From the sequence record OQ921333.1: DNA of 39,287 bases, one strand, 5' to 3'. Below, piece after piece: positions 5,864 to 37,364 of the stretch. The notes under the pieces were generated by a model. It was not told where the DNA came from, made no database searches, and worked only from the letters and a program-made list of their open reading frames with translations. Each line of letters opens with the position of its first letter. Position 1 is the first letter of the stretch. This DNA is from Escherichia phage vB_EcoP_PAS61. The translations under genes and the position numbers were made by a program.

Positions 5864-6448
5864 TTATTGTTTGTTTTTTTCGTTCTGGTTGATGACAAAT
5901 TCAATGTAACTTTCGATCTTTGCTTTCTCGGTTTCGGGTAACAATGCGTAGCGCGAGCGATCATAGTTGATGGTCGCAGGGTCGTGCGGGTGAATCAGTA
6001 ATTCATAGCCGTGACGCCCGAATGCGGATGCAACATTCTCCAGGGTGGAAATGGAAACGCTGACCTCATTGTTTAACAGGCGGCTGATTGTCACCTGGGC
6101 TACGCCGGATGCGCGGTGAAGTTTTCCCTGTGTTGAAAGGTCGCGGCTTTCGCTCATCCAGCGTTCCAGGTTGTGAGCCGCCAGCTGGCCAATGTCGCTT
6201 GGGCCGACAGGCTGAAAACCTTCCTGAGAAAGCGAGCGATCGATATCAAGCCAGTTACGGGGTTTATTGGCGGCAGCTTCAATTTTTCGCGCAACCTGGT
6301 CGCCGATAACCTTCTTGCCAAGAGCCCAGCGGTTTACCAGATTTGCCTGAGTTCCAAGTTTTTCTGCCATCCGCGTCTGAACACCATTGAATTCACGGTC
6401 GATCAAGTCGTTGAGATTTTGCCTGCGGACGTCCTGGATACTTTTCAT
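5864..6448 (-). CDS. Putative prophage repressor (CI-like role) with two helix-turn-helix regions; no obvious LexA-like S24 peptidase domain
   Basis: 194 aa; HTH-like segments GVQTRMAEKLGTQANLVNRW and GKLHRASGVAQVTISRLLNNE; divergent from a Cro-like gene across an operator-rich intergenic region. Confidence 0.55.
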   Translation of the reverse strand: MKSIQDVRRQNLNDLIDREFNGVQTRMAEKLGTQANLVNRWALGKKVIGDQVARKIEAAANKPRNWLDIDRSLSQEGFQPVGPSDIGQLAAHNLERWMSESRDLSTQGKLHRASGVAQVTISRLLNNEVSVSISTLENVASAFGRHGYELLIHPHDPATINYDRSRYALLPETEKAKIESYIEFVINQNEKNKQ

Positions 6449-6503: not shown

Positions 6504-6590
6504 TTACCCAACAGGTAAATGCACCCCATAGGTAACTATCCTTGATTTTTGTTACCTTATGGGTGAATATTTATTATCTGAAATAAATAT
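6504..6590. promoter_or_regulatory. Divergent immunity promoter/operator region (oR-like): TTACCCAACAGGTAA (6504-6518), inverted GGTAAC/GTTACC half-sites (6524-6566), TTGATT -35-like hexamer (6542-6547), AT-rich palindrome TATTTATT-N6-AATAAATA (6568-6589)
   Basis: Motifs read directly from sequence between the repressor (-) and Cro-like (+) genes. Confidence 0.5.
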
Positions 6591-6602
6591 CAGGCAATAG
6601 CT

Positions 6603-7199: not shown

Positions 7200-8015
7200 A
7201 TGAGCAGACATGCAACAGATTGGGCCTGGGAGACAGATCCAGGTAGCTCGTCATTAAAGCTCATACTGCTCTCGATGGCTGACAGAGCCGATGAATATAA
7301 CCTCTGCTACCCCAGCATAGAACGCCTCGTTAAAGACACCTGCTTGAATAAAAAAACCGTACAGGCCGGGCTTATATCGCTCATGAAAATGGGGCTTATT
7401 TCAGATACCGGAGAGAGAAAGGGAGCGACGAAAAGAGTGCGGGTTTTCTCTCTTAATATAACCAAAAAAGGGAACATTAAAGGCAACCTAGATGGGTGTA
7501 ATGAACCCGAAAACGGTAATGTTCCCAAAAACGGGAATATACCCAAAAACGGGATGTTGAATGATCCCAAAAACGGGATGTTGAATGATCCCAAAAACGG
7601 GATCCAGAACCAGTCATATAACCAGTCATTTAACCAAGAGAGGGAGAGCAGGACAAAAACCGGGGATTCTGTGCCTCATGACCCCGGCGCAAACAACGCC
7701 GTGATGAATAACTTTGTTCCTCCTGGTGGGCCAGGGCAATTAGGCAAATTTGTCATGCATGAACAATGGCAGCCATCAGATGACTTTCTTCGGAAAAGCT
7801 CATTGCAGGGAATCTACCTGGACAGTCTGCCAACGGCACAGGAACTTGCAGAGTTCAGAATTTACTGGATGGCTGAGGGTAAGGCATACCATCAGGCACA
7901 GTGGGAGCAGAAGCTGGCAAGGCGGCTGCAGATTAGCAGACAGAAGCAATCAACATTACCTGATAACAACGTTCCGCACTGGAACAGCCCTGAAGCATGG
8001 GAGGATTTCTTGTGA
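7200..8015 (+). CDS. Replication initiator (lambda O-like role) with N-terminal HTH domain; contains origin iterons
   Basis: 271 aa; N-terminal HTH-like region; internal PKNG repeat encoded by DNA iterons; directly coupled to a lambda P-like gene. Confidence 0.65.
   Translation: MSRHATDWAWETDPGSSSLKLILLSMADRADEYNLCYPSIERLVKDTCLNKKTVQAGLISLMKMGLISDTGERKGATKRVRVFSLNITKKGNIKGNLDGCNEPENGNVPKNGNIPKNGMLNDPKNGMLNDPKNGIQNQSYNQSFNQERESRTKTGDSVPHDPGANNAVMNNFVPPGGPGQLGKFVMHEQWQPSDDFLRKSSLQGIYLDSLPTAQELAEFRIYWMAEGKAYHQAQWEQKLARRLQISRQKQSTLPDNNVPHWNSPEAWEDFL
7506..7602. repeat. Putative origin of replication: five iterons CCC(A/G)AAAACGG(G/T)A spaced 18-24 bp, including a perfect 24-bp tandem repeat (7551-7574 / 7575-7598)
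   Basis: Direct repeats at 7506, 7524, 7542, 7566, 7590 read from sequence; location inside the initiator gene as in lambda ori. Confidence 0.7.
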
Positions 8016-8797
8016 ACAACGTTTTTACCGCGATACAAAACCGTGACGGAGAAGCCCTTTCTCGCATGTCAGGTTATGAGCATCAGTACACCAACAATGA
8101 CAACGTGGTGAACATGTCAGCAGAGAGGCTTGTTGATGCCCTTTTCAAACAGCTGAAACAACTGTTTCCGGCGGCAGTGGTAACCAACCTGAAGACGCCA
8201 GAGCAGGAAGTTGCTGCAAAACAGCAGTGGATTGCTGCGTTTGCCGAAGGGGGGATCCGAACCCGTGAACAGGTTTCTGCTGGTATGCGCCACGCCCGCG
8301 CCAGTGAATCTCCGTTCTGGCCGTCGCCAGGGCAATTTATCAAGTGGTGTAAAGACAGCAAGATGGTTCTTGGCGTCACCATTGACGATGTGATGGCGGA
8401 GTTTCATCGGTACAGCAAGGAAAAAAGTTTATATCCTGGTGGTCCCGAAAGATTCCCGTGGCGGCATCCGGTTATGTACTGGGTCGTATGTGATACCCGC
8501 CGTGCAATGTATCAGCGCCAGCTTAGCGAGATTGAAGTTGAGAAACACGCGCGCAGGCTGCTCGATGATTGGGCGAAAAAGGTGGCTTCCGGACAGCAGA
8601 TACCCGATCCGGTGATCAGCATACAGGCAAAGCCAGAGCCCATGAGTACACCTCCGGACACAGGGAGAGACGTTTACCATCCACCAGGGCGAAGTTTCGG
8701 GTGCATGCCTAACGCCGCCACCCTTGGGGGAATAACACCGGCGCAGTGGCTGATGGAGGAATACAGGCGGGGAAAGGCGGCAGGATTTATCAAGTAA
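8012..8797 (+). CDS. Replication protein P-like (helicase loader)
   Basis: Similarity from memory to lambda P (FPA...Q.EV...QW..AF.E.GI.T.EQV.AGMR.AR....PF.PSPGQF..WC); GTG start overlapping upstream stop (GTGA) with GGAGG RBS. Confidence 0.75.
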   Translation: MNNVFTAIQNRDGEALSRMSGYEHQYTNNDNVVNMSAERLVDALFKQLKQLFPAAVVTNLKTPEQEVAAKQQWIAAFAEGGIRTREQVSAGMRHARASESPFWPSPGQFIKWCKDSKMVLGVTIDDVMAEFHRYSKEKSLYPGGPERFPWRHPVMYWVVCDTRRAMYQRQLSEIEVEKHARRLLDDWAKKVASGQQIPDPVISIQAKPEPMSTPPDTGRDVYHPPGRSFGCMPNAATLGGITPAQWLMEEYRRGKAAGFIK

Positions 8798-9262: not shown

Positions 9263-9323
9263 ATCGACGATCTTTTTAGTTATCAATGTAATCAATAAGT
9301 TATGTGGATAAGCGAGGGTAAAG

Positions 9324-15211: not shown

Positions 15212-15288
15212 TGGCGTGGCATGCAGGATTCGAACCTGCGACCAACCGCTTAGAAGGCGGTTGCTCTGTCCGACTGAGCTAATGCCAC
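15212..15288 (-). tRNA. tRNA-Arg (anticodon UCU), phage-encoded
   Basis: Hand-folded cloverleaf: acceptor GTGGCAT/ATGCCAC, D-stem GCTC/GAGC, anticodon stem ACCGC/GCGGT with loop CTTCTAA, T-arm GCAGG-TTCGAAT-CCTGC, discriminator G and encoded CCA. Confidence 0.85.
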
Positions 15289-32967: not shown

Positions 32968-33004
32968 CTTATCTTCTCCATGCAATAACTGTATATTTAT
33001 ACAG

Positions 33005-33098
33005 TAGCAAATAATTTGTTTGCTATCCAGCACGTTTTGCAAATTACCAGAAAGGTAATATCTATTCTTATTCACAGTCTTTCTATCCATATGTGGTT
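33005..33098. promoter_or_regulatory. Regulatory region between moron and tailspike: perfect palindrome TAGCAAA-N7-TTTGCTA (33005-33025), TTACCAGAAAGGTAA (33044-33058), CATATGTGGTT (33088-33098)
   Basis: Motifs read directly. Confidence 0.45.
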
Positions 33099-33162
33099 TT
33101 TCAGGTAATAGAATAACTAGATATGCGGCGCAACGGGTGCTGCGACTATCTGGAGATTTAAC

Positions 33163-35400
33163 ATGACGGTCTCAACCGAAGTTGACCACAACGAATACAC
33201 AGGTAACGGCGTTACAACATCATTTCCGTATACCTTTAGGGTTTTCAAGGAATCTGATCTGGTAGTACAGGTGGTTGACTTGAACGAGAATATCACTGTG
33301 CTGGTTCTTGATACTGATTACACAGTTACAGGGGCTGGAGGATATAACGGCGGCAATGTAATTCTGTCGAAGGCGTTGGCTAACGGTTATCAGATTTCTA
33401 TATCACGAGAGCTGCCGGTTACGCAGGAAACAGATCTACGCAATCAAGGCAAGTTCTTTGCAGAGGTGCATGAGGATGCGTTTGATAAGCTAACGATGTT
33501 GATCCAGCAGGTTAGAAGTTGGTTTAGCTTGGCGCTTCGCAAGCCGTCATTCGTGGCAAACTATTATGATGCGCTTAACAATTACATCAGAAATTTGCGT
33601 GACCCGTTACTTCCGCAGGATGCTGCAACAAAGAATTATGCTGATGAGCTTAGCGCAAATAACACGTCACACACTGATTTTCTCTTTAGCAGAACGCTGA
33701 GAACTGCGGAAGAAATACCACAACTACCTTCCATTGAGTTCAGAAGAAACAAAATCATCGGGATGGATAACGATGGCAATCCGATAATGCTTGTTCCTGA
33801 GTCAGGATCAGCTTCTGATGTTTTAATTGAGTTGGCAAAACCAACTGGTGCTTCATACATAGGGATCCCTAAAGGAGGGTTTCTATCAGACGTTTTATAC
33901 TATTCCACCCCTAAAGAATTCGGTGGGGTTGGCGATGGTATTACTGATGATACGGCAGCGATTGTTGCAGCAGTAAATACCGGATTGCCATTGGTCTTAT
34001 GTGGTGGTAAATGGCGGATAACATCCACTATAGAGCTTCCTGATTGTTATGCAGTGGACGCAAGATGTTCTCACATTATAGCTGATACCGGTTTTCAGCC
34101 TGTTTTTTTATTTAAGGGAAAAAACTATGGGCTTCATTATGCTGGTGGTCTTGTAACAGGAACCGCCAGTTCATTCATGTATATTGAAGGTGAGACTGAC
34201 GTTCCTACGACCAGTAACCAATATGCAAAATTGGTTGAGTTGTATGGTGTGAATATTTCTTCAAAAACCATTATAACCTCACTGATAATGAAAAAAGCAG
34301 TTCGGCAGATATTTATTGATTCATGTTTTTTCTACTCTAAAAATGGCATTGAAGCAGAGGGAAAAACAGTTGAGATTACAATTGACAAATCAATAATATA
34401 CGGTTCAACAGCAGACACTGACAGTTTTGGCATCAAGCTTTCTAGCACAGGTGGAACCAGGTTTTACAACGAAGGATGGCATATTTCAGATTCTACTATT
34501 GATAACTTTGCTAACACGCTTGATTTGGCTGATATATTTGTATTTACAGTTAGTAAAGGTTATGTTGCATGCAATGCGACAACGGCATATGCTGTTACTA
34601 TCAGACCACCAACCACAACAACGCATACTCGAGAAATTCAATTTGATGGTGTTCTTGGCGGAAAAATTAGATTTCTTGATACAGTTTCTGGTCAGACAAT
34701 ATTTCACACAAAAATTTCTGGTGAGATTACAAACTGCAAACAGGGAACTTGTCTTTCCATAGGAGCAAATGCCGCAGGAATTGATATTAGAAGCCTGAGA
34801 GTTACTTCCTCACCTGGATGTACATTATCATCAGTAGCAAATGGATCAGCAAACATTAATTATTCTGATATTTCTACTGATTCATCTTTGGCTGCAGGTA
34901 TTATCTTCAATGGTGAAGCAGGTGGTAATTGCTCAATATCAGACTACCTGTACTCAGGGACTGGAGAGGCGTTATCACTTGCTAGGCCGGTTAAGCTTTC
35001 CAATGTTCCTACAGTTGGTAGCGAAACTTTGAATTGGTCTATAAAGTACGATTATGTATCTGCATCAAAAGATGTCGCAGTTGGAGCATACATAAACCAA
35101 CTTCAAATGACTATTGCAAGATATAGTAAGATAGAGATCAATATAAATCTTTCATATTCTGGGGGCGCAGAGAGCAATGCCCAGGCAATTGGAATAACAG
35201 CTCCTACTGGAGTGGTTCTGCCAAATGGTACAAACTCGATGCTGTTCACATTACCAGCAACGGCGGGATCATTGACTATGAGCATTGTTGCTACAACAAC
35301 GCTAGACTTCAAGAACCTGTCATTCAGCATCGATAACAGAGCTGGTAACCAACTGCGGATTTTGGCCGGTTCCCACTTGTCTGTATCGCTGGCTAACTGA
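33163..35400 (+). CDS. Tailspike protein: T7 gp17-like N-terminal adaptor domain plus beta-helix (pectate-lyase-like) receptor-binding/depolymerase body
   Basis: 745 aa; N-terminus TGNGVTTSFPYTFRVF...DTDYTV; GGVGDGITDDTAAI motif typical of right-handed beta-helix tailspikes; AT-rich. Confidence 0.75.
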   Translation: MTVSTEVDHNEYTGNGVTTSFPYTFRVFKESDLVVQVVDLNENITVLVLDTDYTVTGAGGYNGGNVILSKALANGYQISISRELPVTQETDLRNQGKFFAEVHEDAFDKLTMLIQQVRSWFSLALRKPSFVANYYDALNNYIRNLRDPLLPQDAATKNYADELSANNTSHTDFLFSRTLRTAEEIPQLPSIEFRRNKIIGMDNDGNPIMLVPESGSASDVLIELAKPTGASYIGIPKGGFLSDVLYYSTPKEFGGVGDGITDDTAAIVAAVNTGLPLVLCGGKWRITSTIELPDCYAVDARCSHIIADTGFQPVFLFKGKNYGLHYAGGLVTGTASSFMYIEGETDVPTTSNQYAKLVELYGVNISSKTIITSLIMKKAVRQIFIDSCFFYSKNGIEAEGKTVEITIDKSIIYGSTADTDSFGIKLSSTGGTRFYNEGWHISDSTIDNFANTLDLADIFVFTVSKGYVACNATTAYAVTIRPPTTTTHTREIQFDGVLGGKIRFLDTVSGQTIFHTKISGEITNCKQGTCLSIGANAAGIDIRSLRVTSSPGCTLSSVANGSANINYSDISTDSSLAAGIIFNGEAGGNCSISDYLYSGTGEALSLARPVKLSNVPTVGSETLNWSIKYDYVSASKDVAVGAYINQLQMTIARYSKIEININLSYSGGAESNAQAIGITAPTGVVLPNGTNSMLFTLPATAGSLTMSIVATTTLDFKNLSFSIDNRAGNQLRILAGSHLSVSLAN

Positions 35401-35507
35401 TGATGTTATGACATGGATGTCAAATGATTCAGCGTATGAAATGGAATGGTAGTCGCTTTCGTGCTATAACCTGCTGATTCGTTTACTGAGCAGACTTGAA
35501 CATTGTA

Positions 35508-37364
35508 ATGAAAGTTAATAACTTCAGATATGACATTAACGGATTAAGGGCATTAGCAGTTATCTCTGTTGTTGCTTATCATTTTTCTGCAGACTTCCTT
35601 CCTGGTGGATTTGTCGGTGTTGATGTATTTTTTGTCATATCCGGGTTTTTGATGACCTCAATTATTTTTAGAGGAATTAGCAATAATAACTTTTCTGTCT
35701 TTAATTTCCTGAAAGCCAGAGCGAAAAGGATAGTCCCTGCGCTAACATTTGTTGTTGGTTTGGTGCTGATCGGCGGATATCTTTGTTTTGATGCTATGTC
35801 ATATAAAATAGCTGGAGACCATGCGCTTTCAAGCCTGCTATTCTACTCTAATTATTTTTACGAGGCTGAAGCTGGGTACTTTGATGCTGAATCAAAAGCA
35901 AAGGTTCTTCTTCATACCTGGTCACTATCTGTTGAGTGGCAGTTTTATATAATATATCCGATTGTCTTGTTTTTCCTGAGCAAGGTAATTTCATTAAAGC
36001 AGTTAAAGATATTTATACTGGTGCTTGCCATAGCATCTTTTTCTTATTGCGTGTATGTGACAAAAGTAAACCCCATATCGTCTTACTTCATGATATATAG
36101 TAGGGCTTGGGAAATGATGCTCGGTGGCATCGCTTTTCTATACCCATTAAATGTTAATGAAAATAAGCGAAGATACATTGAATTCATTGGGCTGGCACTC
36201 ATAGTTGTTTCAATGATGGCAATTGATGATAAAACACCGTGGCCTGGAAAGATGGCGCTAATACCTGTCCTTGGTGCCTATCTTGTCATTCTTGCAAAAA
36301 GCAATAACACAATCCTGTCTGGAGAATTAATAAATAGACTAGGGCTGTGGTCTTATTCAATATATCTTATTCATTGGCCTGTGCTTGTTTTTTCACATAA
36401 AATGAACGTGGATTTACCATTTATATGGTATTTTTCATTTGTATTGATATTCTCATTTATAACATATGAGATAATTGAAAAAAGAAGAAGTTACGGAAGG
36501 GGTGCTGTTTTTGTTTTCATCATGGCTGTAGCAGCGTCGTGGTACGTTGGAATAGATGGTGTTGCTGACAGGATTAATAATCAGGAATACAAAATATCAA
36601 AACCGCAATTCAGGGCAAAATACGAAGGTCACCTTGGCATTCATTCAACAGAGGAAGTTAAGTATTTCAACAGTAATGAAAATAACTTTGAATACATCCT
36701 TATTGGTGATAGCCATGCCAGACACTACTATGCCTACATTCAGGATTCAGGTGCTAAGGTTGCATCGTTCGCAGTTGATGGGTGTGAGGTAACAAAGCAC
36801 TTTATGAGTCCCATTGGATGGTCAGAGAAGACAAGAGCTATGTGTGCCAGCAGGTATAAAAAAGCCGTTGACTTCATTAACTCACATCCAGGAAAGCCGG
36901 TTATATGGTCCATGCTATGGAGGGGTGGCGTGATCGGTGAGCCAATAAACGATGGTGAAACAAATCCAAACGACATTATCAGTGAGATGGCATTCTTCCT
37001 GGAAGACATCAAATCCTCTGGTTCTTCGCTATTTATTATTGGAGACACTCAGGGCAGTGACAGAATTATGTTCGAGTGTCTTGCAGGGCAAGATCTGCCA
37101 ATCAATAAGATACTTAATCGCTGTGAAACGACTCAGAAGGAAAAGAAATTCCCTATAAGTGAACGGTTTAAAGAATTTGCATCGAAGCACAGCAATGTTC
37201 ATTTTATCGATCCTACGCCAGCGTTATGCCGCGATGGTGAGTGCGTGATTGTTTATGATGGTATGCCTGTATATACCGATAACGATCACTTTACTAAACA
37301 ATGGTCTATTAATGTCGGTTCATTCATTTTCAATAAAATCAGAGAAACTCAACATACTGATTAA
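35508..37364 (+). CDS. Acyltransferase-3 family membrane O-acetyltransferase with C-terminal SGNH domain (OafA/Oac-like; likely O-antigen acetylation)
   Basis: RYDINGLRALAV..VV.YHF N-terminus typical of acyltransferase 3; multiple TM segments; C-terminal GDSHA SGNH motif; alternative TTG start at 35496. Confidence 0.85.
   Translation: MKVNNFRYDINGLRALAVISVVAYHFSADFLPGGFVGVDVFFVISGFLMTSIIFRGISNNNFSVFNFLKARAKRIVPALTFVVGLVLIGGYLCFDAMSYKIAGDHALSSLLFYSNYFYEAEAGYFDAESKAKVLLHTWSLSVEWQFYIIYPIVLFFLSKVISLKQLKIFILVLAIASFSYCVYVTKVNPISSYFMIYSRAWEMMLGGIAFLYPLNVNENKRRYIEFIGLALIVVSMMAIDDKTPWPGKMALIPVLGAYLVILAKSNNTILSGELINRLGLWSYSIYLIHWPVLVFSHKMNVDLPFIWYFSFVLIFSFITYEIIEKRRSYGRGAVFVFIMAVAASWYVGIDGVADRINNQEYKISKPQFRAKYEGHLGIHSTEEVKYFNSNENNFEYILIGDSHARHYYAYIQDSGAKVASFAVDGCEVTKHFMSPIGWSEKTRAMCASRYKKAVDFINSHPGKPVIWSMLWRGGVIGEPINDGETNPNDIISEMAFFLEDIKSSGSSLFIIGDTQGSDRIMFECLAGQDLPINKILNRCETTQKEKKFPISERFKEFASKHSNVHFIDPTPALCRDGECVIVYDGMPVYTDNDHFTKQWSINVGSFIFNKIRETQHTD

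What the first reader, a model, noticed from the sequence alone, without database searches (positions are those of the whole stretch)
7506..7602. Origin iterons embedded in the replication initiator gene
Five copies of CCC(A/G)AAAACGG(G/T)A at 18-24 bp spacing, including a perfect 24-bp tandem repeat, lie inside the O-like gene and encode its PKNG repeat, as lambda ori lies inside gene O. A repeat-driven spurious ORF appears on the opposite strand (7307-7594).
Basis: partly seen in the sequence, partly recalled or inferred. Interest (0 to 1): 0.45.

Follow-up and report, generated by a model that had tools for sequence, protein, structure and literature searches.

The report
Phage origin iterons inside initiator gene
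The five repeats are almost certainly the binding sites of this phiV10-like phage's own replication initiator, lying inside the initiator gene as in phage lambda: a well-supported but ordinary arrangement, here in an initiator family whose origin has not been annotated.

Summary
Five exact CCCRAAAACGGKA copies lie at 7506-7602, spaced 18, 18, 24 and 24 nt. A degenerate sixth lies at 7461. All sit inside gene 7200-8015.

The window is a phiV10-like E. coli podophage (Uetakevirus). The gene encodes an HTH_36 winged-helix N-domain, a repeat-encoded linker and a DnaT-type C-domain. A lambda-P-like helicase loader follows.

The origin-iteron reading rests on comparison, not experiment:
- In 85 diverse homologues of the N-domain, the same dyad-symmetric motif (consensus AGTCCCAAAAACGGGAC) is packed just after the N-domain coding part.
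- Density there is 10.6 per kb, against 0.13 per kb in the flanks.
- The motif occurs in all three reading frames, often at 17-, 25- or 26-nt spacing, and sometimes inverted. It is therefore conserved as DNA, not as peptide.
- The N-domain and motif travel together, while the C-domain (at least 16 types) and the downstream partner (P-like, DnaB-like, DnaC-like, Toprim) are swapped.

It is a candidate unwinding site.

The protein does not pass the Pfam threshold for lambda O; any homology is remote. No strongly AT-rich tract is present. This is a new member of a known kind, of moderate interest.

The parts
7200..8015 (+). Replication initiator gene (271 aa): N-terminal winged helix, iteron-encoded linker, DnaT-type C-domain
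   Evidence: ORF. Pfam HTH_36 at aa 18-67 (E 1.8e-10) and DnaT at aa 184-252 (E 1.1e-15). phrog_1032 'replication initiation protein', E 4e-108. Annotated 'replication initiation protein' in phiV10.
7251..7400 (+). Coding part of the HTH_36 winged-helix motif, the presumed iteron-recognition domain (whole N-domain about 7200-7460)
   Evidence: The N-domain is 41-53% identical in Edwardsiella, Vibrio, Acinetobacter and E. coli phage homologues.
7461..7473 (+). Degenerate upstream iteron (ACCAAAAAAGGGA, 2 mismatches)
   Evidence: It reads ACCAAAAACGGGA in phiV10 and BP9.
7506..7518 (+). Iteron 1 (CCCGAAAACGGTA)
7524..7536 (+). Iteron 2 (CCCAAAAACGGGA)
7542..7554 (+). Iteron 3 (CCCAAAAACGGGA)
7566..7578 (+). 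Iteron 4 (ATCCC-AAAAAC-GGGAT, 5-nt inverted arms)
   Evidence: Invariant in 42 distinct colinear relatives.
7590..7602 (+). Iteron 5, the last one (ATCCC-AAAAAC-GGGAT)
   Evidence: In the family, the last iteron is followed at a fixed distance by the 12/13-mers.
7607..7642 (+). Three tandem 12-mers (GAACCAGTCATA, TAACCAGTCATT, TAACCAAGAGAG); candidate DNA-unwinding or loading element
   Evidence: TRF. A triple GAAYC at 12/13-nt period occurs in 58 of 85 homologous loci, at 1.58 per kb against 0.02 per kb in the flanks. It follows an iteron-like CC...GG site directly in 56 of those 58 loci. phiV10 has an extra unit.
7636..7659 (+). Purine- and A-rich tract (AAGAGAGGGAGAGCAGGACAAAAA), in the position of the A-rich run of relatives
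   Evidence: Purine fraction 0.65 and T 0.13 over 7603-7665. Relatives have AAAAATAAAAA here.
7749..7955 (+). Coding part of the DnaT-type C-terminal domain
   Evidence: Pfam. PDB DnaT chains 9zbt_D, 6aep_A and 4ou6_A match at E 6.5e-21 to 4e-20 over aa 180-265.
7997..8797 (+). Lambda-P-like helicase loader gene (start ATG 7997 or GTG 8012, overlapping the initiator stop codon)
   Evidence: Pfam Phage_lambda_P, E 1.5e-56. 31% identity to lambda P, E 1e-35. phrog_109 'P-like helicase loader'.
7307..7594 (-). Opposite-strand ORF (95 aa, TTG start), judged spurious
   Evidence: Listed. It lies wholly inside the conserved initiator gene, and its repetitive product mirrors the iterons. Not searched against protein databases.
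6549..6577 (+). Promoter-like site (pR-like) from which the replication genes would be transcribed through the array
   Evidence: Consensus match only, 9 of 12. The count of such sites in the region is not above shuffles.

Best explanation
The array 7461-7602 is the initiator-binding (iteron) part of this phage's replication origin. It lies in the segment of the initiator gene that encodes the flexible linker between two domains.

Proposed mechanism:
1. The early rightward transcript yields the initiator and the P-like loader (inferred from gene order).
2. Dimers of the N-terminal winged-helix domain bind each dyad-symmetric site, (A)TCCC-AAAAAC-GGGA(T). They would contact the C/G tracts at both ends, with the central A-tract bent, building a wrapped complex like the lambda O-some (inferred by analogy).
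3. The adjoining three 12-mers (7607-7642) and the A/purine-rich tract open (inferred).
4. The DnaT-type C-domain holds single-stranded DNA and/or recruits the P-like loader carrying host DnaB (inferred from homology).

Shown here: the repeats, their dyad symmetry and their position; their DNA-level conservation across distant relatives regardless of reading frame; their exclusive linkage to the N-domain; and the swapping of C-domains and partner genes.

The PKNG peptide repeat is a by-product. In this clade the units are 18 and 24 nt, so the repeat also shows up in the protein, and copy number changes by whole units.
For: 1. Position and anatomy. The five exact copies plus one degenerate copy lie between HTH_36 (aa 18-67) and the DnaT domain (aa 184-252). 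Lambda's four annotated iterons start at O codon 117, just after its winged helix, and have the related form ATCCCTC-AAAAC-GAGGGA.

2. DNA-level conservation.
- In 85 diverse N-domain homologues, a trained weight matrix gives consensus AGTCCCAAAAACGGGAC, with palindromic arms. The loci come from gamma-, beta- and alpha-proteobacteria and Desulfovibrio relatives.
- It finds 372 sites in the linkers (10.6 per kb) against 29 in 231 kb of flanks (0.13 per kb).
- 78 of 85 loci have at least 3 copies.
- The core falls in frames 0, 1 and 2 in 231, 55 and 72 copies.
- 83 of 219 neighbour spacings are not multiples of 3; 17 nt occurs 56 times.
- 14 copies are inverted.
- A matrix built from the window's five copies alone still gives 9.1 against 1.4 per kb in the other 84 loci.
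- Examples: the motif is read as TQKRD in GF-2 and PPompW, as DPKTE in Vibrio phage Her, and as PKNG here.

3. Linkage. The DNA pattern CCCAAAAACGGNNNNCAGAAYC was searched blind in IMG/VR. In 79 of the 80 matches examined the N-domain is encoded just upstream on the same strand. The last match lies at a locus edge.

4. Modularity, as in lambdoid initiators.
- The same N-domain plus iterons is fused to at least 16 unrelated C-termini.
- These include DnaT type, Phg_2220_C and lambda-O type. The lambda-O type is seen in GF-2 through phrog_277 and phrog_2357.
- The downstream partner is P-like, DnaB-like, DnaC/IstB-like or Toprim.

5. The second element, a triple GAAYC 12/13-mer, follows the last iteron at a fixed distance in 56 of 58 loci that have it. 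Periods are mostly 12+13 nt, so it is also not peptide-driven.

6. Copy number varies from 4 to 9 among 79 near-identical relatives, always by whole 18- or 24-nt units. Functional lambdoid origins likewise carry 4 or 6 iterons (PMC7466680).

7. Iterons 3-5 and the 12-mers are nearly invariant in 42 distinct colinear relatives. Three of 46 third-codon positions vary there, against 40 of 226 in the rest of the gene. This is suggestive only; no test was run.
Against: - There is no experiment: binding and origin firing are inferred.
- The window has no strongly AT-rich tract beside the array. The 12-mers are about 61% A+T, against 74% for lambda's tract. The least stable nearby 40-mers rank only at the 97th percentile (7450-7490) and the 92nd (7600-7640) of the window.
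- GC skew does not single out the site.
- The weight matrix behind the 10.6 per kb figure was trained on the same linkers. The untrained control gives a smaller contrast, about 6.6-fold.
- Many of the 85 loci are related Acinetobacter prophages, so the counts are not independent events.
- Direct sequence similarity of the N-domain to lambda O is not significant.
Confidence: 0.8

Rival explanations
1. The repeats are only a slippage-prone, low-complexity coding linker (N/G/P/K-rich peptide repeats) with no function as DNA.
For: - In the window every spacing is a multiple of 3 and the repeats give a clean peptide repeat.
- Copy number varies by whole units among close relatives, as expected for replication slippage.
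- Lengths of E. coli prophage homologues differ by 6 or 8 aa steps.
Against: - In distant relatives the same DNA motif is read in all three frames, at 17-, 25- and 26-nt spacing, and sometimes on the other strand. It then gives unrelated peptides.
- The motif keeps dyad symmetry, which a peptide repeat has no reason to do.
- A linker under peptide selection alone would not keep CCCAAAAACGG between Escherichia, Vibrio, Acinetobacter and Desulfovibrio-type hosts.
Confidence: 0.04
2. The sites do bind the initiator, but mainly for control rather than as the place where replication starts. Possible roles are autoregulation, a roadblock to transcription of the C-terminal part and of P, or titration and handcuffing of the initiator.
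For: - Iterons of plasmids serve both initiation and copy control (reviewed in PMC4980987, listed).
- Neighbouring iteron arms plus the A-tract form terminator-like hairpins on the minus strand.
- No strong AT-rich tract is present.
Against: - The conserved fixed-distance 12/13-mer triple and the A-rich run directly after the last iteron look like an opening site, not an operator.
- The arrangement matches oriλ, annotated in the lambda record and studied experimentally (PMC7466680), and the P22 origin, annotated by similarity to lambda.
- The hairpin count is not above shuffles.
Confidence: 0.08
3. The true origin lies elsewhere in the genome, for instance in an AT-rich intergenic region such as 6540-6600, 8834 or 9270-9310 (the last carries a perfect DnaA box). 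The array would then be auxiliary or vestigial.
For: - The least stable 40-mers of the window are intergenic (15657, 35118, 36422, 8834, 6551, 9270) and not at the array.
- A perfect TTATCCACA lies at 9303-9311.
Against: - DnaA-box-like matches in the window are fewer than in shuffles: 52 against 77 +/- 9.
- None of these regions has repeats linked to the initiator.
- AT-rich intergenic DNA is ordinary promoter and terminator sequence.
- The iteron array is the only feature that co-varies with the initiator across the family.
Confidence: 0.06

Closest known systems
oriλ inside gene O of phage lambda (and the 6-iteron origins of Stx phages 933W and P27)
   Same: - Several direct repeats of dyad-symmetric sites lie in the linker-coding middle of the initiator gene, directly after its winged-helix domain.
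- The sites share the general form TCCC..AAAAC..GGGA and irregular spacing: 20, 24 and 23 nt in lambda, 18, 18, 24 and 24 nt here.
- The top strand is A-rich.
- A P-type helicase-loader gene follows, 31% identical to lambda P.
- Iteron number varies between relatives.

   Different: - The initiator is HTH_36 + DnaT_C, not Phage_rep_O. BLAST finds nothing, and the Pfam O model is not matched by the window protein.
- The iteron arms are shorter (4-5 nt against 6-7 nt).
- A triple 12-mer plus a purine-rich tract (about 61% A+T) stands in place of lambda's 74% A+T tract.
- The C-domain is DnaT-like rather than the lambda O C-domain.
Phage P22 origin inside gene 18 (annotated rep_origin in NC_002371)
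   Same: - The origin sits in the middle of the initiator gene, after an O-type winged helix.
- The initiator C-domain is matched to a different partner (a DnaB-like helicase, gene 12), showing the same modular logic.
- The last iteron is followed by GAATCAGTCA, as in the 12-mers here.

   Different: - The iteron sequence is different (TTTACCnnATCGGTAAA).
- The family weight matrix finds no site in the P22 origin.
- The N-domain belongs to the lambda O type.
Edwardsiella phage GF-2 'DNA replication protein O' (and Vibrio H20-like and Acinetobacter AP22-like initiators)
   Same: They share the N-domain (41-53% identity), the iteron core (CCCAAAATTGGGA, CCCGAAAACGGTA), 24-nt units and the GAAYC 12/13-mers.
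   Different: - The C-domain differs: lambda-O type in GF-2, unknown types in Her and AP22.
- The partner gene differs: P-like in GF-2, DnaB-like in AP22.
- Some copies are read in other frames.
Iteron origins of theta plasmids (RK2 TrfA, F RepE, pPS10 RepA)
   Same: A winged-helix initiator binds an array of direct repeats next to short 13-mer-type repeats of an unwinding element. Rep proteins are reported to bind one strand of that element sequence-specifically (PMC4081077, abstract seen).
   Different: - Plasmid iterons lie outside the rep gene and are accompanied by DnaA boxes. No DnaA box lies near the array here.
- No similarity to Rep WH1/WH2 families was detected.
E. coli DnaT (primosomal protein I), C-terminal domain
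   Same: Residues 180-265 align to DnaT 85-170 at E 6.5e-21, roughly half of the residues identical.
   Different: - DnaT has no origin-binding winged helix and acts in PriA-dependent restart, not at an origin.
- The annotation 'primosomal protein I' carried by many relatives describes only this domain.

Membership tests
Lambda-type phage origin embedded in the initiator gene | Four or more direct repeats of an about 18-nt site with internal dyad symmetry, inside the initiator gene | tested here: met
   Five exact copies plus one degenerate copy; arms ATCCC/GGGAT around AAAAAC. The family consensus is palindromic.
Lambda-type phage origin embedded in the initiator gene | The array lies between the N-terminal DNA-binding domain and the C-terminal partner-binding domain | tested here: met
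   HTH_36 covers aa 18-67, the iterons aa 88-135, and DnaT aa 184-252.
Lambda-type phage origin embedded in the initiator gene | A markedly AT-rich tract (about 40 nt, about 75% A+T) directly beside the last iteron | tested here: not met
   Region 7607-7642 is about 61% A+T, and 7603-7665 has GC 0.48. Duplex stability reaches only the 92nd percentile of instability, while lambda's tract has GC 0.26. Many relatives do have an A-rich run there.
Lambda-type phage origin embedded in the initiator gene | A helicase-loader or helicase gene immediately downstream, matched to the initiator C-domain | tested here: met
   The P-like gene 7997-8797. Partner and C-domain co-vary across the family.
Lambda-type phage origin embedded in the initiator gene | The initiator binds the repeats, and the fragment supports replication in trans | not testable with these tools
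   Needs gel-shift or footprinting assays and an ori-plasmid assay.
Pfam Phage_rep_O (PF04492), the lambda O N-domain family | A match to the family model at its gathering score | tested here: not met
   The window N-domain gets no hit even at E <= 10. A relative (PPompW) scores E 0.26 and 12.3 bits against a cut-off of 28.7.
Pfam Phage_rep_O (PF04492), the lambda O N-domain family | Remote homology of the winged helix | tested here: inconclusive
   Lambda O and the window N-domain hit phrog_678 and phrog_345 over overlapping profile positions. The family profile aligns residues 41-86 to lambda O 73-118 and to P22 gp18 68-115, but weakly: hhalign E 0.011 at probability 3.9%, hmmsearch 5-7 bits.
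HTH_36 + DnaT_C phage initiators (phrog_1032, annotated 'primosomal protein I' or 'replication initiation protein') | Both domains present in this order and a full-length match to the family profile | tested here: met
   Pfam. phrog_1032 matches at E 4e-108 over residues 1-269. PDB DnaT chains match. Identity to phiV10 gp43 is 95%.
Plasmid iteron origins (Rep WH1-WH2 type) | DnaA boxes beside the iterons and an initiator of the Rep_3/RepE/TrfA families | tested here: not met
   The nearest DnaA-box-like site, with one mismatch, is at 8011, and counts are below shuffles. No Rep family hit was found.

The most novel reading that the evidence does not exclude
The HTH_36-type N-domain, its palindromic GTCCC-AAAAAC-GGGAC iterons and a fixed-distance triple of GAAYC 12/13-mers may form one portable origin cassette. 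It would be shared by temperate phages and prophages of at least four proteobacterial classes. The 12/13-mers would be a sequence-specific opening or single-strand-binding site rather than a merely AT-rich tract, recognised by the initiator or the loading machinery. This cassette and its unwinding element do not appear to have been described or annotated: no rep_origin is annotated in the phiV10, GF-2, Her, AP22 or PPompW stretches fetched, and the literature searches found nothing.
Probability: 0.35. Interest if true: 0.55.

Novelty: new member of a known kind. Interest (0 to 1): 0.35.

Why it matters
- It gives phiV10-like phages (used for E. coli O157 typing and detection, and common as E. 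coli prophages) and a large set of related prophages a concrete, testable origin of replication. Database records currently show only a 'primosomal protein'.
- It shows that the peptide repeat in these proteins is a shadow of DNA sites. This matters for annotation: spurious antisense ORFs, misleading 'DnaT' names, and length variants.
- The broad comparison suggests a simple rule for finding origins in this initiator family. It also points to a conserved 12/13-mer element that could show how lambda-type initiators open DNA.
- It does not change the established picture of lambdoid replication.

Tried and rejected
- AlphaFold2 on the single sequence gave mean pLDDT 35.8 and is unusable, so no fold search was run.
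- I looked for lambda O relatives to build a profile, but IMG/VR returned only copies 100% identical over the query. The profile-profile test against O could therefore only be profile-versus-sequence, and it stayed weak.
- The first per-site diversity analysis was invalid, because one 816-nt gene was not colinear. Redone on 42 colinear sequences, it shows lower third-position variation in the array and 12-mers, but the numbers are small.
- GC skew: the cumulative minimum at 6-7 kb coincides with the switch from leftward to rightward genes and says nothing about replication.
- DnaA boxes: there are none at the array, and the window-wide count is below chance.
- Rfam found only one tRNA in the window and nothing at the array.
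- Literature: full-text searches for the repeat sequences, for phiV10/epsilon15 replication, and for iterons in prophage initiators found no description of this iteron family. The candidate papers on pIGRK and Pf-5 were irrelevant. The vB_EcoP_ZX5 paper says nothing on the origin. The epsilon15 genome paper is not held. Absence from this library does not prove the family is undescribed.
- The big-database protein search returned only near-identical E. coli prophage proteins among the 120 listed. It was useful only for length variants.
Full report
**What the window is.** The initiator gene (7200-8015) is 95-98% identical in DNA to Escherichia phages EC.W1-9, phiv142-3 and phiV10, of genus Uetakevirus, with genomes of about 39 kb. 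The region around the finding has the layout of a lambdoid early-right operon:
- a repressor-like gene on the minus strand (5864-6448, two HTH_3 motifs);
- small rightward ORFs;
- the 271-aa gene 7200-8015;
- a gene whose product matches Pfam Phage_lambda_P (E 1.5e-56) and is 31% identical to lambda P.

**The observation.** It is confirmed.
- CCCRAAAACGGKA occurs exactly five times in the window, at 7506, 7524, 7542, 7566 and 7590, spaced 18, 18, 24 and 24 nt.
- With up to two mismatches there are nine matches, against 2.0 +/- 1.5 in shuffles, and none of 100 shuffles reaches nine.
- A degenerate sixth copy lies at 7461. It is closer to the motif (one mismatch instead of two) in phiV10 and BP9.
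- The copies have dyad symmetry: ATCCC-AAAAAC-GGGAT in copies 4 and 5.
- They are read as (E/V/I/D)P(E/K)NG. The opposite-strand ORF 7307-7594 exists and mirrors the repeats.

**The protein.**
- Pfam finds HTH_36 at residues 18-67 and the DnaT DNA-binding domain at residues 184-252.
- The C-domain aligns to solved E. coli DnaT chains (9zbt_D, 6aep_A, 4ou6_A) at E about 1e-20.
- PHROGs places the whole protein in phrog_1032, 'replication initiation protein', at E 4e-108.
- The iterons therefore encode the stretch between a winged-helix domain and a C-terminal domain.
- This matches lambda, whose annotated iterons begin at O codon 117, directly after its winged helix. Lambda's iterons have the related form ATCCCTC-AAAAC-GAGGGA.

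**Is the repeat conserved as DNA or as peptide?** This is the key question, and relatives answer it. A translated search of phage genomes showed that residues 1-140 recur at 45-52% identity in Edwardsiella, Vibrio and Acinetobacter phages. That stretch covers the N-domain plus the repeat region. The C-terminal half does not recur with it. Reading those loci gave the following.
- Edwardsiella phage GF-2 has three 24-nt units, ATGATCCCAAAATTGGGATTTTGA. Upstream lies a copy, CACCCAAAAACGGGATGA, in a different reading frame, read as TQKRD.
- Vibrio phage Her has five CCCGAAAACGGTAC units plus a copy read as DPKTE.
- The PPompW prophage has copies in two frames.

I then collected 80 near-identical relatives from IMG/VR and 80 diverse homologues of the N-domain from bacterial genomes. 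The diverse set spans Vibrio, Pseudoalteromonas, Marinomonas, Acinetobacter, Providencia, Yersinia, Burkholderiaceae, Sulfuricella, Sphingomonadales, Erythrobacter, Halodesulfovibrio and others. De novo repeat finding showed a repeated CC..AAAA..GG-type word starting 230-345 nt into the gene in most loci. A weight matrix iterated on the linkers converged on AGTCCCAAAAACGGGAC, with inverted arms GTCCC/GGGAC. Its results:

| Measure | Result |
|---|---|
| Sites in 35 kb of linker | 372 (10.6 per kb) |
| Sites in 231 kb of flanks | 29 (0.13 per kb) |
| Loci with at least three copies | 78 of 85 |
| Core in frames 0 / 1 / 2 | 231 / 55 / 72 copies |
| Neighbour spacings not a multiple of three | 83 of 219 (17 nt occurs 56 times) |
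| Inverted copies | 14 |

That matrix was trained on the linkers, so I repeated the scan with a matrix built from the window's five copies only. The other 84 loci still show 9.1 against 1.4 sites per kb. A peptide repeat cannot explain a motif that keeps its nucleotide sequence and dyad symmetry while being read in three frames and on both strands.

**Reverse test.** I searched IMG/VR blind for the DNA pattern CCCAAAAACGGNNNNCAGAAYC, which is the last iteron plus the start of the 12-mers. In 79 of the 80 matches examined, the N-domain is encoded within the 700 nt upstream on the same strand (profile E < 1e-5). The remaining match lies 45 nt from a locus edge. The motif is thus tied to this DNA-binding domain.

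**Modularity.**
- The C-terminal parts attached to the N-domain and iterons fall into at least 16 BLAST-unrelated clusters.
- Representatives include the DnaT type (as here), Phg_2220_C and several with no Pfam match. A lambda-O type occurs in GF-2, shown by phrog_277 and phrog_2357 hits and an ending in LTNTDWIYGVQL.
- The next gene is lambda-P-like, DnaB-like (AP22), DnaC/IstB-like (Vibrio salinus prophage) or Toprim-containing.
- This is the classical division of labour of lambdoid initiators: N-terminal origin specificity and C-terminal recruitment of the helicase system. That division is established knowledge about lambda O, and the P22 record annotation illustrates it.

**A second conserved element.**
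- Directly after the last, usually most palindromic, iteron, 58 of 85 loci carry three GAAYC words at 11-13-nt period. Density is 1.58 per kb against 0.02 per kb in the flanks.
- In 56 of those 58 loci an iteron-like CC...GG site lies immediately upstream, typically as ...GGGAC-AC(A/G)-GAAYC.
- The periods are mostly 12+13 or 13+12 nt, so the three units are read in different frames. This is again conservation of DNA.
- In many relatives an A-rich run (AAAAATAAAAA) follows.
- In the window the element is 7607-7642 (GAACCAGTCATA, TAACCAGTCATT, TAACCAAGAGAG), followed by a purine-rich tract. phiV10 has one more unit.
- By position and form I take it to be the unwinding or loading part of the origin. 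It would be comparable to the 13-mers of plasmid and chromosomal unwinding elements, which Rep proteins can bind sequence-specifically as single strands (PMC4081077, abstract). This is inference.
- Two loose echoes in classical origins are worth noting. P22's last iteron is followed by GAATCAGTCA. Lambda's last iteron reads GGGGGAC-ACA-AAAGAC.

**Variation among close relatives.**
- Counting the upstream copy, the window has six iterons. Among 79 near-identical relatives the number ranges from four to nine, always by whole 18- or 24-nt units. E. coli prophage proteins differ in length accordingly, at 279, 285, 287, 291 and 311 aa.
- Functional lambdoid origins also differ in iteron number, four in lambda and six in Stx phages (PMC7466680).
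- In 42 distinct colinear relatives, iterons 3-5 and the 12-mers are almost invariant. Three of 46 third-codon positions vary there, against 40 of 226 elsewhere in the gene. This is suggestive only.

**Relation to lambda O.**
- BLAST finds nothing.
- Pfam Phage_rep_O is not matched by the window protein. It only grazes a relative, at E 0.26.
- Both N-domains hit phrog_678 and phrog_345 over overlapping profile positions.
- The family profile aligns its recognition helix and wing (residues 41-86) to lambda O 73-118 and to P22 gp18 68-115, but weakly.
- Together with the similar iteron form, this makes remote common ancestry of the whole N-domain-plus-origin cassette plausible but unproven.
- I therefore describe the gene as working like O, not as a member of the O family.

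**Weak points.**
- Nothing here shows binding or initiation.
- The window lacks a lambda-grade AT-rich tract. The 12-mer region is about 61% A+T, and its 40-mers reach only the 92nd percentile of instability. The region just upstream of the array (7450-7490) reaches the 97th percentile. The least stable DNA of the window is intergenic.
- GC skew is dominated by transcription direction.
- There is no DnaA box at the array, as in lambda.
- The comparative counts include many related Acinetobacter prophages and are not independent.
- The single-sequence structure model failed.

**Most likely mechanism.**
1. Transcription from a pR-like promoter (consensus match at 6549-6577) produces the initiator and the P-like loader. 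[inferred]
2. Winged-helix dimers occupy the dyad-symmetric iterons and bend the A-tracts into an O-some-like complex. [quoted passage not shown] [inferred by analogy]
3. The adjoining 12-mers and purine-rich tract open. [inferred]
4. The DnaT-type C-domain engages single-stranded DNA and/or the P-like protein carrying host DnaB. [inferred from homology]
5. The origin sits in linker-coding DNA, so the encoded PKNG repeat is a tolerated by-product. [supported by the frame and copy-number data]

**Verdict.** The thing belongs to a known kind, a lambda-type origin embedded in its initiator gene. It occurs here in an initiator family (HTH_36 + DnaT_C and its mosaic relatives) for which none of the genome-record stretches fetched annotates an origin. 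The library searches found no description of it. Interest is moderate. The added value is the family-wide, frame-independent conservation and the newly noticed 12/13-mer element.

Noticed in passing
window 7607-7642: A triple 12-mer (GAACCAGTCATA, TAACCAGTCATT, TAACCAAGAGAG) follows the last iteron directly. It is conserved as GAAYC 12/13-mers at a fixed distance from the last iteron in 56 of the 58 homologous loci that carry it, with non-triplet periods.
   Followed up: yes
window 15212-15288 (-): A tRNA-Arg gene (anticodon TCT), the only Rfam or ARAGORN hit in the window.
   Followed up: partly
window 33001-37000: A low-GC block (0.39-0.41, against 0.487 for the window) suggests foreign, recently acquired DNA. 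Tandem repeats also lie at 36418-36461.
   Followed up: no
L004 1501-2001 (Vibrio phage P2): The initiator gene is cut off directly after the fourth 24-nt iteron and continues into unrelated sequence. The genome is 46 kb, against 53 kb for its relatives, so the iteron array may be a deletion or recombination junction.
   Followed up: no
L008 (Escherichia phage BP9, record positions 133437-137225): A 138-kb record labelled Vequintavirus carries a phiV10-like immunity and replication module near its end. The 115-kb record 'phage PH444' also holds the gene. Both are probably chimeric assemblies.
   Followed up: no
window 7550-7569 and 7574-7593 (-): Terminator-like hairpins on the minus strand are formed by the facing arms of neighbouring iterons plus the A-tract. 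The count of such sites in the region is not above shuffles.
   Followed up: no
window 9303-9311 (-): A perfect DnaA box, TTATCCACA, lies beside one of the least stable 40-mers of the window (9270) in an intergenic region. Box-like matches overall are fewer than in shuffles.
   Followed up: partly
L369 1414-1423 (P22) and L001 1112-1135 (lambda): The DNA right after the last iteron of the P22 and lambda origins (GAATCAGTCA; GGGGGAC-ACA-AAAGAC) resembles the junction GGGAC-ACA-GAAYC(AGTCA) of the family studied here. This hints at a shared origin core across initiator families.
   Followed up: partly
window 7997-8015: The P-like gene can start at ATG 7997, a 19-nt overlap with the initiator gene. 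It can also start at GTG 8012, a GTGA overlap that suggests translational coupling. The phiV10 record uses the position equivalent to 8012.
   Followed up: no
L107 1730-2030 (MAG, Pseudomonadota) and L034: These are extreme arrays: 12 iteron-like copies at spacings of 17-25 nt in a metagenome-assembled genome, and nine copies in one phiV10-like contig.
   Followed up: no
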